NCBI GenBank assembly: GCA_951406725.2
Contig: OX597815.1
Location: forward strand, 106,826,001 to 106,890,000
Reading direction: 5' to 3'
Source: Octopus vulgaris
Taxonomy: Eukaryota
DNA length: 64,000 bases
Part shown: piece by piece, positions 553-58,293 of the stretch
Position numbering within the stretch: the stretch's first letter is position 1
Layout of the letters: every line of letters begins with the position of its first letter
Translations under genes and position numbers: made by a program
The notes under the pieces: model-generated
The model's database searches: none
What the model was told of the DNA's origin: nothing
Seen by the model: only the letters and a program-made list of their open reading frames with translations

Positions 553-3012
553 TGTTTCTTTGTTAGCCACAGCGGAGCTGAACACAGAGGGGACAAAATA
601 CAGAAAGTAAGCTTTTCTTTTTTTGACGGAAAAAAAAAAGTGGGGGGAGAATTTCGATCAAAAGGGATCGTGGAAAGAAAAAAAAGAAGGCGATCAATAG
701 AGATCGTGTATCACAGAAATGTCATAATGTAAAGGTGGAAAGAAAAGCTTACGGAAAAGATCACGGTAACCTCGGGCAATAATGTCATGCAAAAGACACA
801 TTACAGTAAGTGATTCTCTTTTTTTCATTTCTTTTTCTGGTTCATAGGATTACGCTCAAGATGCCTCCGTCATTCACACGTGCCATCCTTGCTACATTCA
901 CCTATCTTTTTTTGAAACATTCACTAGACAAAACTTCCCTCACTACTCTCACCTTCCTCTTCAAGTGATACTTGAAGAAGTTGATGAGAGATTCCCCTGA
1001 GGGGAAAGTGTTTGTCTGTAGACCTTTCAGATGCGCCCACCATACACACTCTTTCGCCATAGCCACAAGTACGAGGAAAATGGCTCTTCCTTCCCGTTTC
1101 AAGGAAGGAGGCGCGACAGTATTCACGATAGACTCGGTTGATAAACTGACTCGTCCCGCACGCGATAGTAGTCGTTTGACATAGGCTCACAGGTCGGAAA
1201 TGGTTGGATACTGTACAAGTGCGTGCAGAACGGTTTCGTCGCTCTGACCGCATCTCGGGCAGGTCAGCCACGTGATTTCGAGCCATACCTGTAGAGTTTA
1301 TCCTGAATGGGTAGTGCTCCTCGATAGCACTGTCAGACCAGGAATCTCTGGCAGTTGTCCATAGGTCCCAGCCCGAAAGTCGTCTTGAACAGTCGGGTCA
1401 GGTATTCCTCGTTGACACCCAAGTTTGCCCCGAGATCGTCGTCGTACATTCCCTCCACTAATTCCCTATAGAATGCTTTGGTTGTGTTACAGTCGCTCAA
1501 GGTCGACCCGGGACGTCATAGTTGCTGGAGAGCAACGCGACACTCGCTGTGCCGTTCGCCCTTCCTTGGCCTCTTTTTGATCCGCGACTGCAGTTCAGTC
1601 ATGGAGACGAGGTGCGGGAAAGCGCGCCTCACAAACGGCGACCACAGCTGTTCACCGTCATCTACGTAGAGCTGGAGATGTCGCAGTCTCAGCACGTGTC
1701 TGCACATCATCAACCTCGGTATGCCCAACCCTCCTTTTGACGGGTGTTGGCAGCAAACAGATCGCCCGATCATCAGAACGCATCCTTTCCACAAGAAGCG
1801 GAAGAGAATGCGTACCAGTTTGATGATGGTAGGGTCGGGACAAAGCGGTCAGGCGGTAGTAGATGACGGACGCGATGTACGTGTTCGACACCTCTGCCCG
1901 ACCTTTTAGCTACAGCTTCCTCTCGGCCCATTTCCGGGTGAGAGTGATCCCCCTACTCGTTATCTTGTTCCAGTTATTCTCCGTTTGGAGGTTTGGACCA
2001 AACCATACCTCAAGTAACTCGACCGGACCGTCGGTCCAGCGTCCCACGACGGAGGCGCTGCTGGACGGCATGGGCTTGCTTCTCCAGGTGCCGAGCCGCA
2101 AGCCCACTGACTTTTCTCAGTTGATTTTCGCTCCTGTTATCGCTTCGTAGTCTTTCAGTGTCTCACCGACCAGCTTGATGTGCTTCTGGCTAGACCCTAT
2201 GACGGTGACGTCGTCCGCGTATGCGGACACACTCGTCCCGCATCTCAATTCGCAGCGTCAGTTCTCGAGCCACTACAGCTTCCGCAGTAGTAGCTCGAGA
2301 GTCAATACGTACAGAAGCGACGAGAGAGGGCATCCCTGACGGACCGAACGTGCAATGTCGAAAGGTCTCGATAGATGTCCATTCACGCGAATTACCGAGC
2401 GAATGCCTCTGTACTAGGCAGCTATCCAGCCGCGGAAGACAGGACCGAGACCAGCCGCTATGAGGCCCGGCACGGCGCACGTTTGCGCCTTGTCGACCTT
2501 TCGATGACAAGCGCCAACACCTTGGCCTAAATTTTCAAGTCTGCCTAAAGTTATCTATTACGTCCCCCTTGTTTGGGTCTTTCTTCAGCAGCGTTACGGC
2601 TCCTCGGCTCACAAAACTGCTGCCAAAACGTCTCTAAACAAGTCTGGCATACTACTGTAAAGCTCGTAGAGTAGACCATCCAAACCCGGTGACTTGTCCC
2701 TCGGGCATTCTTCCATCGCGTCCCGCACTTCCGCCCCCGTGATGGCACCTTCGCAGCACTCTGCCTCTCTTGTCGGGAGGCGTGGAAGACTGTGCATGTA
2801 GGCACTGAAGTCCACCTTGCATTCTTGCTCACCATTCGTCCCGAACAGTCGGGCAAAATGCTGTTGAAAGGCCTCACACATTTTACTTGGCTCCTGTAAT
2901 TCGCGCACCTGCTCATCTACCAGAGACTGAATGGTGGCTTTGTTGCTCTGTTGCGCCTCCGCCAGCCGGGCCTCGCGCAGCTCCAACACCTTCGTTCTTT
3001 AGAGCGCGCCTC
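553..3012 (-). mobile_element. 5'-truncated, frameshifted Tx1/L1-clade non-LTR retrotransposon (ORF2 RT region to 3' UTR)
   Basis: Minus-strand ORF pieces with L1/Tx1 ORF2 motifs: FQQHFARLF...ITGAEVRDAM...KSPGLDGL.YELY (2609-2989), GPVELLEVWFGP...NWNKI (1910-2107), CQHPSKGGLGIP (1516-1794), VAMAKECVWW (902-1126). GC-rich island against AT-rich flanks. Confidence 0.85.
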
Positions 3013-23164: not shown

Positions 23165-23214
23165 AAAAAAATGGAATGCTTCACGAATTTGCGAGTCATC
23201 CTTGCGCAGTGGCC

Positions 23215-23247
<33 letters not shown>

Positions 23248-23271
23248 AATATGTACCGCCGCAGCTAGTGT
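23165..23271 (-). ncRNA. RNU6: U6 snRNA full-length copy, probably a retropseudogene
   Basis: Reverse complement ACACTAGCTGCGGCGGTACATATTCTAAAATTGGAACGATACAGAGAAGATTAGCATGGCCACTGCGCAAGGATGACTCGCAAATTCGTGAAGCATTCCATTTTTTT. ACAGAGA box and AGC triad intact, several substitutions vs canonical metazoan U6. Upstream is LINE ORF2 rather than a PSE/TATA promoter. Confidence 0.95.
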
Positions 23272-24750
23272 CACCGTTAATTTCCGCTTAACTAATATCT
23301 TTGAACATATTTCTTACTGAGAAAGACACGTTCAGCGCTTCCAATATCTAATAATCTTGTCTATCTTCACTGTACAGATAATGAAATTATGGTCTGTGTA
23401 GCCTACAACCCAAACCACGAGCTTCAATACTACATGTACAGCTTAGATGATACGTTTCGTTTTGTTCAAGTTGACACTGGTGTATTGAGGAAATGAAGTT
23501 GATACTTGCCAAACAGTTGGAACTATCTGAGCAGATTTGTGATTTTTGCCTTCTCTTCACACTCCCAGCTTATGTTTAATATGTCACAGAAATATTTCTA
23601 ATCCGTCTAAAGAAATCCGGCCGTTAGGGAGTTAGCCATTAGTGAGACTGCAACAGCAGCACTCACTATAGTTCACGTCTAGTCTCATCTGAATTTATGA
23701 AGGTTGTGCTTACTTTTGCATCCAGGCTTTTCAGAAACATCGCTATCATATCACTTGATCTGTGCCGCTCAAAGAAGGCACAGACGTTGTAGTGGAACAA
23801 AAACAGGCGAGTGATTAAGCCTCAGAAAGTTTTGGTCTCGATGATGGCTGCTATATCTATTTGTGGTGACCTTAGATCATTGAGCAGGTGTCCGTGTTTC
23901 GACTCTGAGACTGTGCTACGTTCAGTTATACGCTCTATTCTTAGTATGATCACGTGAGGAAAATTGGAGACCAAATAAACAAAGAGTGGAAAGTTTTCAA
24001 TTACTCTGTTTTTGAGACATTCATTTTTCAAAATATTTGAAAGGTTATTCCAACACGTTCTTGTTGAGGATATGTTGAAACGCCATCGGTGAAATGTTTA
24101 CTCAGCATGCTATGCATTTCTGATGTGCTTCTCACCAGATCTTCATTTGATGTTTCATAGATCAATGAGTGCATTAAAATCCTCAACTTTTGTAAATATT
24201 CTGTCCTTATTTGCACAAATTCCATGAACTTTTCATTTTTCATATGGAGGATGGTGTAGCTGAGGAGTTCCTCCGTGGTTTGTAATTGCCGTGGTGTAGT
24301 TTCTGCGCGTGTTGCTTCTGTTGTTATAGTAGTAGTTGTTATGTGATTGTTGCAGTTGTGCTATAGCTCCTTTTGTTGCTGCTATTGTTGTGTGGTTTTT
24401 GCATCTATTGATATTGATTCTATCGTTGTTTTATTGTCACTGTTGTGTTTTTTGTTGTTGTTTCTGTTAGGCTGCTGTAGTAGTGATAGTTATTGACGCA
24501 TTGCCTGATTTGTAATTTTGGCCGCGTCTATTTGATTTTTCGCTTATCTTGGTGCTGAATGGAGTCAACAACTGGTTATTCCGCTCGTAAACACTTTTTT
24601 CTTTTGTTGAAACACTTGTCACTATACCATACTCGGACACTTTGTGCTTGTCTACAGCATCTTTCTTACTCAAGGGGTCAGAAGATGAGGCTATGTTTAC
24701 CTTCCTGTTCCTTCTTGCTATTTCTTTTTTTAGCAGAGACATACCCATGA
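23272..24750 (-). mobile_element. Decayed Tx1/L1-clade LINE 5' part (APE endonuclease, possible ORF1 remnant)
   Basis: ILRIERITERS...KHGHLLNDLRSPQIDIAAIIETK (APE N-terminus, 23830-23950), VGYTDHNF (SDH motif, about 23385-23408), YWK.LNVSF (about 23322-23347). 5' boundary uncertain. Confidence 0.7.
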
Positions 24751-35685: not shown

Positions 35686-35812
35686 TTGAAATTTACAGAA
35701 AAACAAAAGGCGAAGACAGGTGTATGAACAACAAGCAGGTTTATTAGTTTGACGCTCGGGAAAGTGAGAAAGTCTTTTAAGTTTCGAGCCTATGCTCTTC
35801 AACAGAAAGGAA
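35440..35812. mobile_element. Two convergent Penelope-like terminal fragments with hammerhead-like motifs around a (CA)n tract
   Basis: Plus CTAAAGA-A-GAGC-GAT-GCTC-GAAACGTTA (35470-35497); minus CTGTTGA-A-GAGC-ATAG-GCTC-GAAACTTA (35805-35778); both followed by similar TTTC..GAGCGTC..CTAATA sequence. Confidence 0.5.
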
Positions 35813-36539
35813 TATACACATATAACGCATAAACATGCTTAAGCAATTTACAGTTTGATTCTAAAAATGAGATAGACTAGCATAGTTTTAAGGACAAAAG
35901 ATTCAACATTATTTACTGAAAATTTTTCTTCATAAAATATTTTCTCTTTTTCAGTCTCTTCAGTTGTTTTTTTTTTATTTCTAACTGCTCACCATTTCCA
36001 TTTAACATAAGAAAATGCACTTCAATAAAATTTCAGATCAATTCTCAATTGTCGATAAAGTTTCCTTTTATATGCCCACTGGAATTTCACTTGAGAGCCG
36101 AAGATTGTTTTCGAAAATCTGACATGGAACTTTCTGTGATTAAATAAGATACGTGTACTTCAATCAATATAATACTAAGATCTGAATCTTAGTTGCGGCT
36201 GCGTTATCTTAGAACAAATAGCACTTATCTGGAAACAAAATACACACGCGATTTTACATGGAATGGAGAAATTGTTTTGATTGAGATGATTAAAAGCTAA
36301 CATATCATTTCAATATCAATTTCTAAGCTATCTACCATCGAGGTTAGTGATATATTAATCTTGTGTGATTCTATAAAGATTTTCAATTGTAAATCCTTCA
36401 TTGTGATGTATGTGTGTGTGTGTGTGCGTGCGTGAGGGGTTGTGCGTCCGAGTGTTTCTATAGGCATATTTATATACATATACATACATGCATACATACA
36501 TACCTACATAATACATACATACATACACACACACACACG

Positions 36540-53095: not shown

Positions 53096-53267
53096 ATCGT
53101 TGCACTTTCAGTGATCAAATATTTCTTTTTGCATAGGATTTTTGGTCGATAACTGATGAGGGATGAGCGTGTCCAGGTTCATTTTCTCCTGTTTACCTAT
53201 GTTGCTTAGTCGTTTCACTGTGCAGCATTTTAGCACATACATACAAACATACATGCATATATGTATA

Positions 53268-53310
<43 letters not shown>

Positions 53311-53464
53311 GTTATCGCCATACTAATATGGCATTCTTATAAAAATAAGAAAAAAGCTGTCCGCTTATTAGCTCCATGAGGCCATCGCCTTAAGTTAGCT
53401 ATTTGATACACAAACTGTATCCATATAACCTTCGAACAAGGGAGGTCAGTCGCTCCACACTACT

Positions 53465-53526
53465 TGACCGGCAGCTACAGACGCGTTTCGGGGTATTGCC
53501 CCTTTTCAATGCAGCGTAGCCAGCCA
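53465..53526 (-). ncRNA. Minimal type I hammerhead ribozyme (U3-A8 variant), copy 1
   Basis: UGGCUGGC-UAC-GCUGCA [UUGAAAA] GGGG-CAAUA-CCCC [GAAA] CGCG [UC] UGUAGC-U-GCCGGUCA. Confidence 0.8.
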
Positions 53527-53825
53527 GTAGGTGTCGCTTCCGACAATCTCTGTTCGATGGTTTTATTTACCTAGTTTCAGTGGAATACATCCACTTGTTT
53601 TCAATAATAGAAAAATTAAAATAACTAAGTCTCTCTAAAAGAGAACAGCGGCAGCGTTCCCGGGAAATAATAGTTATCGCCATACTAATATGGCATTCTT
53701 ATAAAAATAAGAAAAAACTGTCCGCTTATTAGCTCCATGAGGCCATCGCCTTAAGTTAGCTATTTGATACACAAACTGTATCCATATAACCTTCGAACAA
53801 GGGAGGTCAGTCGCTCCACACTACT

Positions 53826-53887
53826 TGACCGGCAGCTACAGACGCGTTTCGGGGTATTGCCCCTTTTCAATGCAGCGTAGCCAGCCA
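53826..53887 (-). ncRNA. Hammerhead ribozyme, copy 2
   Basis: Identical motif to copy 1. Confidence 0.8.
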
Positions 53888-54186
53888 GTAGGTGTCGCTT
53901 CCGACAATCTCTGTTCGATGGTTTTATTTACCTAGTTTCAGTGGAATACATCCACTTGTTTTCAATAATAGAAATATTAAAATAACTAAGTCTCTCTAAA
54001 AGAGAACAGCGGCAGCGTTCCCGGAAATAATAGTTATCGCCATACTAATATGGCATTCTTATAAAAATAAGAAAAAAACTGTCCGCTTATTAGCTCCATG
54101 AGGCCATCGCCTTAAGTTAGCTATTTGATACACAAACTGTATCCATATAACCTTCGAACAAGGGAGGTCAGTCGCTCCACACTACT

Positions 54187-54247
54187 TGACCGGCAGCTAC
54201 AGACGCGTTTCGGGTATTGCCCCTTTTCAATGCAGCGTAGCCAGCCA
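54187..54247 (-). ncRNA. Hammerhead ribozyme, copy 3 (one C missing in stem II)
   Basis: Same motif with GGGG/CCC; may be a homopolymer error. Confidence 0.7.
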
Positions 54248-54798
54248 GTAGGTGTCGCTTCCGACAATCTCTGTTCGATGGTTTTATTTACCTAGTTTCA
54301 GTGGAATACATCCACTTGTTTTCAATAATAGAAATATTAAAATAACTAAGTCTCTCTAAAAGAGAATAACGGCAGCGTTCCCGGAAAATAATAGTTATCG
54401 CCATACTAATATGGCATTCTTATAAAAATAAGAAAAAAGCTGTCCGCTTATTAGCTCCATGAGGCCATCGCCTTAAGTTAGCTATTTGATACACAAACTG
54501 TATCCATATAACCTTCGAACAAGGGAGGTCAGTCGCTCCACACTACAGTTTGTGTATCAAATAGCTAACTGAAGGCGATGGCCTCATGGAGCTAATAAGC
54601 GGACAGCTTTTTTCTTATTTTTATAAGAATGCCATATTAGTATGGCGATAACTATTATTTTCCGGGAACGCTGCCGCTGTTCTCTTTTAGAGAGACTTAG
54701 TTATTTTAATATTTCTATTATTGAAAACAAGTGGATGTATTCCACTGAAACTAGGTAAATAAATCCATCGAACAGAGATTGTCGGAAGCGACACCTAC

Positions 54799-54860
54799 TG
54801 GCTGGCTACGCTGCATTGAAAAGGGGCAATACCCCGAAACGCGTCTGTAGCTGCCGGTCA
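54799..54860 (+). ncRNA. Hammerhead ribozyme, copy 4
   Basis: TGGCTGGCTACGCTGCATTGAAAAGGGGCAATACCCCGAAACGCGTCTGTAGCTGCCGGTCA. Confidence 0.8.
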
Positions 54861-55160
54861 AGTAGTGTGGAGCGACTGACCTCCCTTGTTCGAAGGTTAT
54901 ATGGATACAGTTTGTGTATCAAATAGCTAACTTAAGGCGATGGCCTCATGGAGCTAATAAGCGGACAGCTTTTTTCTTATTTTTATAAGAATGCCATATT
55001 AGTATGGCGATAACTATTATTTCATGGGAACGCTGCCGCTGTTCTCTTTTAGAGAGACTTAGTTATTTTAATATTTCTATTATTGAAAACAAGTGGATGT
55101 ATTCCACTGAAACTAGGTAAATAAAACCATCGAACAGAGATTGTCGGAAGCGACACCTAC

Positions 55161-55222
55161 TGGCTGGCTACGCTGCATTGAAAAGGGGCAATACCCCGAA
55201 ACGCGTCTGTAGCTGCCGGTCA
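55161..55222 (+). ncRNA. Hammerhead ribozyme, copy 5
   Basis: Identical to copy 4. Confidence 0.8.
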
Positions 55223-55439
55223 AGTAGTGTGGAGCGACTGACCTCCCTTGTTCGAAGGTTATATGGATACAGTTTGTGTATCAAATAGCTAACTTAAGGC
55301 GATGGCCTCATGGAGCTAATAAGCGGACAGCTTTTTTCTTATTTTTATAAGAATGCCATATTAGTATGGCGATAACTATTATTTTCCGGGAACGCTGCCG
55401 CTGTTCTCTTTTAGAGAGACTTAGTTATTTTAATATTTC

Positions 55440-55508
<69 letters not shown>

Positions 55509-57594: not shown

Positions 57595-57708
57595 TAAACA
57601 GTTCTACCCATTACACTCGTGTTTACTATTTCAAATGTCCTCGTTTTGGCGCGCTAAATTACTCTCATTTGAAATAGTAACCACGTGTGTAATGGGTAGA
57701 ACTGTTTA
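57595..57708. repeat. Hairpin with 43-bp arms (2 mismatches) and a 28-nt loop
   Basis: TAAACAGTTCTACCCATTACACTCGTGTTTACTATTTCAAATG / CATTTGAAATAGTAACCACGTGTGTAATGGGTAGAACTGTTTA. Confidence 0.85.
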
Positions 57709-57714
57709 CAAATC

Positions 57715-58293
57715 CTAGTATGGGAAACAGCCCAGCCACAACCGAGAAGGGAACATCGTGGAAAACAGGTTCTTCTCTCTATCTGGTGGGATTGCAAAGG
57801 AGTAATTCACTTTGAATTGTTTCCACTTAATGCAACAATCAATGTTCAAGTCTACCGTCAGCAATTAGAGCGTTTGAACCAGGCTTTGAAGAGAAAAAGA
57901 CCCGCTTTAGTGAATCGAAAAGGAGTGATGTTTCATCAAGACAATGTGCGACCCCACAATACAAAGGTCACATCACTGAAGATTGAAGAGCTTGGCTGGA
58001 AAAAAATTCCTCGTCTACTTTATTCTCCCGACCTTGCTCCTTCAGACTACCATTTGTTTCGTAGTTTACAGAATCATTTGGGGGACATAACTTTCGCAAG
58101 CCATTTCAGAGTTTTTCGCTTTGAAACCAAAAGAGTTTTACATTGATGGGATTAAAAAGCTTGCAGATAGATGGAAGGAAGTCATAGATAATCAGAGAAA
58201 GTACTCTAATGATTAAATTCCAACTAAATATAACATTTGATCACTTGTTTTCTTTATTCAAAATTTGGACAGAACTTATGGGATGACCTGATA
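57715..58293 (+). mobile_element. mariner (DD34D) transposon 3' half
   Basis: WWDCKGVIHFE...FHQDNVRPH...YSPDLAPSDYHLFRSLQNHL; TIR TTATGGGATGACCTGA|TA related to the TIR at 45950. Confidence 0.9.

What the first reader, a model, noticed from the sequence alone, without database searches (positions are those of the whole stretch)
54799..54860. Hammerhead core carries a compensatory U3-A8 pair instead of C3-G8
Seen: the core reads UUGAAAA rather than CUGANGA in all five copies. Established: positions 3 and 8 form a tertiary Watson-Crick pair in the active hammerhead, and U3-A8 restores that pairing. Inference: a double, structure-preserving change indicates selection for catalysis rather than decay, and standard CUGANGA pattern searches would miss this family.
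Basis: partly seen in the sequence, partly recalled or inferred. Interest (0 to 1): 0.8.

Follow-up and report, generated by a model that had tools for sequence, protein, structure and literature searches.

The report
U3-A8 hammerhead retrozyme, targeted by retrotransposon
This is a 362-base mobile repeat, present in thousands of copies in this genome, whose predicted self-cutting RNA motif carries an already published core variant (U3-A8); it is likely copied by Penelope-like retrotransposon enzymes, and the newer point is that the young copies of a second retrotransposon all sit at one spot just in front of this motif.

Summary
Observation confirmed: five type I hammerhead motifs read UUGAAAA (U3-A8). 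They are five units of one insertion, so they are not independent evidence. U3-A8 is already published as a natural variant, including in Penelope-like element (PLE) ribozymes (PMC4209133, PMC3088659).

The element is a non-coding 362-bp tandem unit of the non-LTR retrozyme kind. Pattern counts give 1,739 U3-A8 cores, plus 767 matches dominated by an older subfamily. Selection on the RNA fold is supported by compensatory stem changes across subfamilies and a monomer folding z-score of -8.9. U3-A8 itself never varies between subfamilies.

Insertions show the PLE signature: divergent arms, (TA)n targets and two fixed ends 63 nt apart. An intact PLE family in this genome also has a U3-A8 core and is the best helper candidate, though no DNA homology links them.

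Not found in print: 21 of 21 young copies of a Tx1-like LINE sit at one 17-bp site just upstream of the ribozyme. Older relatives do not (0 of 8), and two of them are joined to U1 snRNA sequence, which suggests a target switch. Cleavage, circles and expression are untested.

The parts
53305..54546 (-). Left arm, 3.4 units of the 362-bp repeat; outer end at unit position 113 (short end)
54544..55445 (+). Right arm, 2.5 units; outer end at unit position 176 (long end); the arms meet 5' to 5' at about 54544-54546
54810..54851 (+). Type I hammerhead motif, copy named in the finding: U3 54816, A8 54821, predicted cut after 54845
54795..54864 (+). Extended helix I (distal stems with an internal loop) around the motif, with compensatory changes across subfamilies
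55172..55213 (+). Hammerhead motif, second copy
54196..54236 (-). Hammerhead motif, third copy (one C missing in helix II)
53835..53876 (-). Hammerhead motif, fourth copy
53474..53515 (-). Hammerhead motif, fifth copy
54846..55207 (+). Predicted 362-nt monomer RNA from cut site to cut site; highly self-paired
   Evidence: -130 kcal/mol, z -8.9; circular fold -125 kcal/mol, 66% paired
55383..55445 (+). [quoted passage not shown]
54784..54800 (+). 17-bp site duplicated by the Tx1-like LINE at other loci; empty here and in the other units of the window
53257..53307 (.). (TA)n microsatellite at the left end (insertion target)
55443..55505 (.). (TA)n microsatellite at the right end (insertion target)

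Best explanation
The repeat is a non-coding mobile element of 362-bp units, each carrying a type I hammerhead motif with a U3-A8 core, that is likely copied through RNA by the enzyme of an autonomous Penelope-like element (a non-LTR retrozyme). Shown: the unit, the motif, the copy numbers, the (TA)n targets, the two divergent arms and the two fixed ends 63 nt apart. Inferred: arrays are transcribed; two neighbouring ribozymes pair through the palindromic helix III and cut after GUC to give 362-nt monomers that would circularise; a PLE reverse transcriptase-endonuclease would nick both strands of (TA)n and start cDNA at the two sites, one per strand, running round the circle to give arms longer than one unit. 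U3-A8 would be a working substitute for C3-G8 that was fixed before the subfamilies split. The 781-aa PLE family, which has the same core and helix III as the oldest subfamily, is the likeliest helper (about 55:35 against the 1,200-aa family, 10 for one not found).
For: Counts with helix III ACGCGT: U3-A8 1,739, C3-A8 14, U3-G8 9, C3-G8 11; reversed controls 3, 3, 1, 4. Of these, about 6 C3-A8 and 2 U3-G8 are copies of this family, as expected from decay after insertion, and none of the 11 C3-G8 is. Older subfamily: 767 matches against 2; by my reading of the 100 listed, 86 are family-like: 84 U3-A8, 2 C3-A8, 0 C3-G8. Structure: 98.9% of 351 cells pair, 4 of 22 pairs change on both sides, 0 of 500 shuffles reach the covariation score, slid controls pair at most 50% (16 sequences); whole unit, 7 of 93 pairs change on both sides (12 sequences); monomer z -8.9; dimer -31.9 against 2 x -12.9 kcal/mol. 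Ends: 116 of 132 arm ends lie at two sites, 110 of 116 touch (TA)n, and 30 of 31 two-armed loci have one end of each kind (80 loci). This matches the PLE tail and inverted-copy anatomy and the two RT start sites measured for a PLE. Units within an insertion differ by 1.2 substitutions on average (62 pairs) against 6.8 between insertions (758 pairs). Autonomous PLE with RT and GIY-YIG domains, U3-A8 core, ACATGT helix III, two ends in (TA)n. Mussel retrozymes of 350-390 bp self-cleave and form circles.
Against: No cleavage, circle or strand-specific expression data; both read-laying runs had contigs only. No DNA similarity between the unit and either autonomous PLE family. The only junction with a PLE found in 171 unit-bearing loci is with the other (1,200-aa) family (L054/L102). 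In the one PLE studied in vitro, ribozyme cleavage needed protein and was not needed for insertion, and no RNA reads ended at the cut site. The covariation rests on a few inherited changes among related subfamilies; on the core-only alignment it was weaker (1 pair, 6 of 500 shuffles as high). The U3-A8 pair never varies, so it gives no within-family covariation. The pattern searches fix most core letters, so their invariance is circular except at positions 3, 7 and 8.
Confidence: 0.8

Rival explanations
1. The element is PLE-mobilised, but the hammerhead fold is kept as a protein-binding or folding module and cuts little or not at all; arrays come from long read-through transcripts or template jumps, not from circles.
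For: Ribozyme mutants did not affect PLE insertion in vitro; PLE ribozymes cleave poorly in vitro; a highly successful PLE family in this genome has U at core position 6, where a change lowers activity (A6C).
Against: Position 7 varies (A, C, T) while positions 3 and 8 stay U and A; the helix III palindrome is kept through a change; arrays of up to about 9 near-identical units are hard to keep without a circular or re-entered template (inference).
Confidence: 0.15
2. A satellite repeat amplified at the DNA level, with a decayed hammerhead in which two independent mutations happened to restore a pair.
For: Tandem units at 98% identity; no coding frame in the unit.
Against: Copies are dispersed as short arrays over many contigs, with fixed ends in (TA)n and divergent arms; compensatory changes and z -8.9; single 3 or 8 changes are rare.
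Confidence: 0.03

Closest known systems
Non-LTR retrozymes (Cervera and De la Pena 2020, PMC7229834; Li et al. 2026, bioRxiv 10.64898/2026.07.22.740005)
   Same: Non-coding tandem unit in the 170-400 nt range (mussel 350-390 bp), one type I hammerhead per unit, short palindromic helix III, highly self-paired monomer, co-occurrence with PLEs.
   Different: Core is U3-A8; insertions are two divergent arms with two fixed ends in (TA)n; no pLTR homologous to the unit was found; cleavage and circles were not shown here.
U3-A8 minimal hammerheads of Schistosoma Cercyon PLEs (PMC4209133) and natural U3-A8 cores (PMC3088659)
   Same: Same compensatory 3-8 pair in a natural hammerhead, in a PLE-related setting.
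   Different: Those PLE motifs are minimal (long helix II, short helix I, mostly single and heterogeneous); this one has canonical geometry (6-bp helix I with distal stems, 4-bp helix II) in young tandem units.
Penelope-like elements, tail and inverted-copy structure (PMC8557442; PMC11167929)
   Same: Partial tandems, an inverted 5'-truncated copy, a tail at one end only, microsatellite targets.
   Different: No open reading frame; the tail is 63 nt, against the 30-40 bp described.
Target-specific Tx1-clade LINEs (Tx1L in Tx1D, Keno in U2, Tx1-Mar in Mariner-N4; PMC4494074)
   Same: ORF1 zinc knuckle and ORF2 APE-RT, fixed site in a multicopy sequence, about 17-bp duplication, tandem insertions that share a duplication.
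   Different: The target is a hammerhead retrozyme, and the older relatives are tied to the U1 snRNA 5' end; neither target appears in the passages read. Clade membership was not tested by a tree with named references.

Membership tests
Type I hammerhead ribozyme | Core with a 3-8 Watson-Crick pair, GAAA and an NUH triplet, in type I topology | tested here: met
   U3-A8, GUC triplet, helices I-III
Type I hammerhead ribozyme | Helices supported by covariation | tested here: met
   4 of 22 pairs with double changes; weaker on the core alone
Type I hammerhead ribozyme | Match to an Rfam hammerhead model | tested here: not met
   a library limit rather than a defining feature
Type I hammerhead ribozyme | Self-cleavage; loop 1-loop 2 tertiary contact | not testable with these tools
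   needs an assay or structure probing
Non-LTR retrozyme | Non-coding tandem units of about 170-400 nt with a hammerhead in each unit | tested here: met
   362 bp, 5 of 5 full units
Non-LTR retrozyme | Palindromic short helix III allowing a dimeric ribozyme | tested here: met
   ACGCGT or ACATGT; the dimer fold is favoured in prediction
Non-LTR retrozyme | Highly self-paired monomer | tested here: met
   z -8.9; conserved fold
Non-LTR retrozyme | Expressed as circular RNA | tested here: inconclusive
   contigs only; no run on record as RNA
Non-autonomous PLE derivative | PLE insertion signature (tail at one end, inverted arm, microsatellite target) | tested here: met
Non-autonomous PLE derivative | Sequence homology to the pLTR of an autonomous PLE | tested here: not met
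   two families tested, no match beyond the ribozyme core; other families may exist
Autonomous PLE | RT plus GIY-YIG reading frame | tested here: not met
   no frame in the unit or next to it
Tx1 clade (the LINE at other loci) | APE endonuclease, RT and zinc-binding domains, L1-like | tested here: met
Tx1 clade (the LINE at other loci) | Target-site specificity | tested here: met
   21 of 21 young copies
Tx1 clade (the LINE at other loci) | RT phylogeny with named Tx1 references | not tested
   no named reference sequences were on hand

The most novel reading that the evidence does not exclude
A three-tier parasite chain: a U3-A8 hammerhead retrozyme rides on a PLE, and a Tx1-like LINE recently switched its target from the 5' end of U1 snRNA genes to this retrozyme. 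It inserts so that the duplicated 17 bp rebuild the whole ribozyme downstream, is co-transcribed with the array, and uses the hammerhead cut 62 nt past its 3' end (and the cut in the unit before it) to release its own RNA. The site specificity is shown; the switch is likely; the use of the ribozyme is untested.
Probability: 0.3. Interest if true: 0.72.

Novelty: new member of a known kind. Interest (0 to 1): 0.42.

Why it matters
The U3-A8 pair alone is a confirmation, not a discovery. The family is still useful. It is a young, abundant retrozyme that Rfam does not detect, so ribozyme counts in such genomes are too low. Its ends give a clean genomic test of the two-start-site model of PLE insertion (one start per target strand in 30 of 31 two-armed loci), which links retrozymes to PLE enzymes by mechanism and not only by co-occurrence. 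The Tx1-like LINE offers two closely related groups of copies (about 90-97% identical) with different targets, a natural pair for asking how LINE target choice changes, and possibly a case of one element borrowing another's ribozyme.

Tried and rejected
Rfam gave no hammerhead match; it also missed the C3-G8 motifs in loci L162-L165 and L062, so the miss is not due to U3-A8 alone.

Expression: no RNA holder listed. Eight run layings were contigs only and cannot show ends, strand or circles. A 392-nt contig (362 + 30) in runs X10 and X17 fits a closed cycle but equally a uniform tandem array. No row at positions 54816 or 54821 among the 40 of 60 differences shown; the table is cut, so this proves nothing.

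Search for an autonomous element flanked by this unit: long gaps between ribozyme copies held the Tx1-like LINE or unrelated DNA, not a PLE frame. The PLE adjacency test printed nothing because of a faulty option and was redone. A C3-G8 ancestor of the family was not found: 0 of 11 hits and 0 of 86 family-like hits. Four metagenome stretches with nearly the same helix II all have C3-G8, but they match only 22-29 nt, so they show the scaffold in its usual form, not ancestry. An idea that A8 arose by CpG decay when position 7 was C was not supported, because the most divergent subfamilies have T at position 7.

In the Tx1 tree row L172 is a long branch because its stretch runs into non-LINE sequence; the root is arbitrary and the bootstrap had not settled. 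Four look-ups of earlier findings returned nothing. Przybilski and Hammann 2007 could not be opened.

Full report
1. Observation. The window holds one insertion at 53305-55445, made of two arms of a 361/362-bp repeat (3.4 units on the minus strand, 2.5 on the plus strand) that meet at about 54545 and end in (TA)n on both sides. A scan of both strands for a core with a paired 3-8 position and three helices gave five hits, all TTGAAAA, one per full unit. Helix I has 6 bp, helix II 4 bp, helix III 2 bp with a palindromic loop (ACGCGT), and the triplet is GUC. The unit has no long reading frame. Rfam found only a U6 gene in the window and no hammerhead even at E <= 10. The host is probably an octopod: the genome has 2.8 Gb and neighbouring repeats match Octopus and Argonauta proteins. 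This is an inference.

2. The family. A 141-base query gave 1,217 candidates, of which 40 were scored, nearly all at 99-100% identity. With helix III fixed, the four core types count U3-A8 1,739, C3-A8 14, U3-G8 9 and C3-G8 11, against controls of 3, 3, 1 and 4. About 8 of the 23 mismatched hits are copies of this family, and none of the C3-G8 hits is. An older layer at 76-88% identity has helix III ACATGT: 767 matches against 2; of the 100 listed I count 86 family-like, 84 U3-A8 and 2 C3-A8. So U3-A8 is the fixed state of the whole lineage, and the change from C3-G8 cannot be seen inside it.

3. Is the ribozyme fold under selection? The five window copies cannot tell, since they are one event. 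Subfamilies can. In 16 hand-picked copies, 98.9% of 351 cells pair and four pairs change on both sides: in helix I, at 10.1-11.1, and in two distal stems (0 of 500 shuffles reach the score, but related sequences inflate this). On the core alone the signal is one pair. Position 7 takes A, C or T. The helix III palindrome survives a double change. The monomer folds at z -8.9 with its ends joined by helix I, the consensus fold holds over 12 units with 7 of 93 pairs doubly changed, and a two-copy fold with an extended helix III is 6 kcal/mol better than two monomers. None of this shows cleavage.

4. How it moves. In 80 non-overlapping family loci (duplicates and non-family loci left out), 116 of 132 outer arm ends fall at unit positions about 113 or 176; 110 of these 116 touch (TA)n; 30 of 31 loci with one such end on each strand have one of each kind. 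Of the 16 other ends, 7 are LINE junctions and 2 are assembly gaps. This is the PLE anatomy of inverted 5'-truncated copies and a tail at one end (PMC8557442, passages). It fits the two adjacent RT start sites and the cutting of both strands measured for the anole PLE (PMC11167929, parts 1-2 of 4). Units within an insertion are closer to each other (mean 1.2 substitutions) than to other insertions (6.8), as expected from a circular monomer or a uniform source array; this does not separate the two.

5. Helper. Two intact PLE families were found. One has 1,200-aa frames (6,133 candidates, 150 scored; RT and a weak GIY-YIG match), ends in (TA)n and has U at core position 6. One locus joins a retrozyme arm directly to its endonuclease region (L054/L102). 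The other has a 781-aa RT and GIY-YIG frame (16 of 150 listed matches), 27% identical to the first. All 6 full-length loci fetched carry a U3-A8 core with the same seven core letters and helix III as the oldest retrozyme layer, and its copies end at two sites about 37-40 nt apart in (TA)n. Neither family shows DNA similarity to the unit, so the helper is inferred. U3-A8 thus occurs in at least two element families in this genome.

6. A LINE that targets the element. Gaps inside some arrays hold a 5.37-kb LINE (ORF1 zinc knuckle; ORF2 APE, RT and zinc-binding domains; best solved relative L1 ORF2). All 19 exact matches to its 3' end are followed by the same 17-bp sequence (window 54784-54800), then by the ribozyme (16) or another LINE copy (3) (control 0). 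A DNA search (40 scored of 1,039 candidates, 30 fetched) added two more copies at 98% or above, both at the site: 21 of 21 copies at 16 places. Sixteen start precisely after the duplicated site and five are 5'-truncated. Hosts belong to more than one subfamily, so there were several insertions, but two loci (L123, L161) suggest that some copies were carried along by the PLE machinery. Eight older copies (81-97%) are not at the site. Seven are followed by ATAC; one is joined to a complete U1 snRNA gene at its first base (Rfam 125 bits), and another is preceded by U1 bases 1-17. A tree separates the 16 retrozyme-site rows from the 6 others by one branch (100/99; rough values, arbitrary root). 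A switch from U1 to the retrozyme is the simplest reading, but the U1 link rests on two clear loci. The window's units are empty sites.

7. What is known. Natural U3-A8 cores, and earlier in vitro proof that such cores work, are stated in PMC3088659 (section 8 and passages; the cited study was not seen). About 1,300 U3-A8 minimal hammerheads were found in Schistosoma Cercyon PLEs (PMC4209133, parts 1-2 of 4). Non-LTR retrozymes, including mussel units of 350-390 bp that cleave and circularise, are in PMC7229834 (section 14 and passages). Their PLE origin is argued in bioRxiv 10.64898/2026.07.22.740005 (parts 1-2 of 5 and passages; no mention of octopus or molluscs). Tx1 families that target transposons and snRNA genes are in PMC4494074 (section 15 and passages). 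PMC6155905 was read in passages. Searches for octopus or cephalopod with hammerhead, Penelope or retrozyme and for Tx1 with retrozyme or U1 showed no description of this family or of this target in their listings. The library lacks most subscription papers and Repbase, and I opened no supplements; those of PMC4209133 and PMC7229834 could list cephalopod motifs. The name Neptune-like for the two PLE families rests on the zinc-finger linker described, not on a tree.

8. Verdict. Real, and mostly explained: a new member of the non-LTR retrozyme kind with a published core variant. Interest is raised by the clean two-start-site signature, a co-resident PLE with the same core, and the site-specific LINE. 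Interest 0.42.

Noticed in passing
L123:1954-7321 and 15 other places in G000 (target = window 54784-54800): Tx1-like LINE with intact frames; 21 of 21 young copies at one 17-bp site of the retrozyme, 0 of 8 older copies; two older copies joined to U1 snRNA sequence (L189/L196, L198).
   Followed up: yes
L237-L242: Young autonomous PLE family (781-aa RT and GIY-YIG frame behind a second open frame of up to 479 codons) whose pLTR hammerhead also has U3-A8.
   Followed up: partly
L127-L130, L103-L121: Abundant PLE family with 1,200-aa frames; its hammerhead has U at the normally fixed position 6 (C in L118), yet the family is young and very numerous.
   Followed up: partly
L054:613-1318: Retrozyme arm joined directly to the endonuclease region of the 1,200-aa PLE at unit position 229; may be a template switch or a repair product.
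   Followed up: partly
L062:1500-1910: A different repeat with hammerhead-like motifs about 369 bp apart, the first with a C3-G8 core; no similarity to this unit.
   Followed up: no
run X11 laid on window 54765-54898: One contig (depth 7) with many A-to-G changes on the ribozyme strand, including in GAAA; looks like RNA hyper-editing but has no matched DNA.
   Followed up: no
window 23165-23274 (-): U6 snRNA gene or copy (Rfam 98.8 bits).
   Followed up: no
window 1675-2459 (-): Decayed L1/Tx1-like fragment, 65% identical to the LINE above.
   Followed up: no
window 35701-35820 (-): Decayed pLTR fragment of the 1,200-aa PLE family, 75% identity.
   Followed up: no
window 57700-58146 (+): Open frame that looks like part of a mariner transposase (the name is recalled, not tested).
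   Followed up: no
L188:2514-2707 (-): A U2 snRNA gene about 400 bp from an older copy of the LINE.
   Followed up: no
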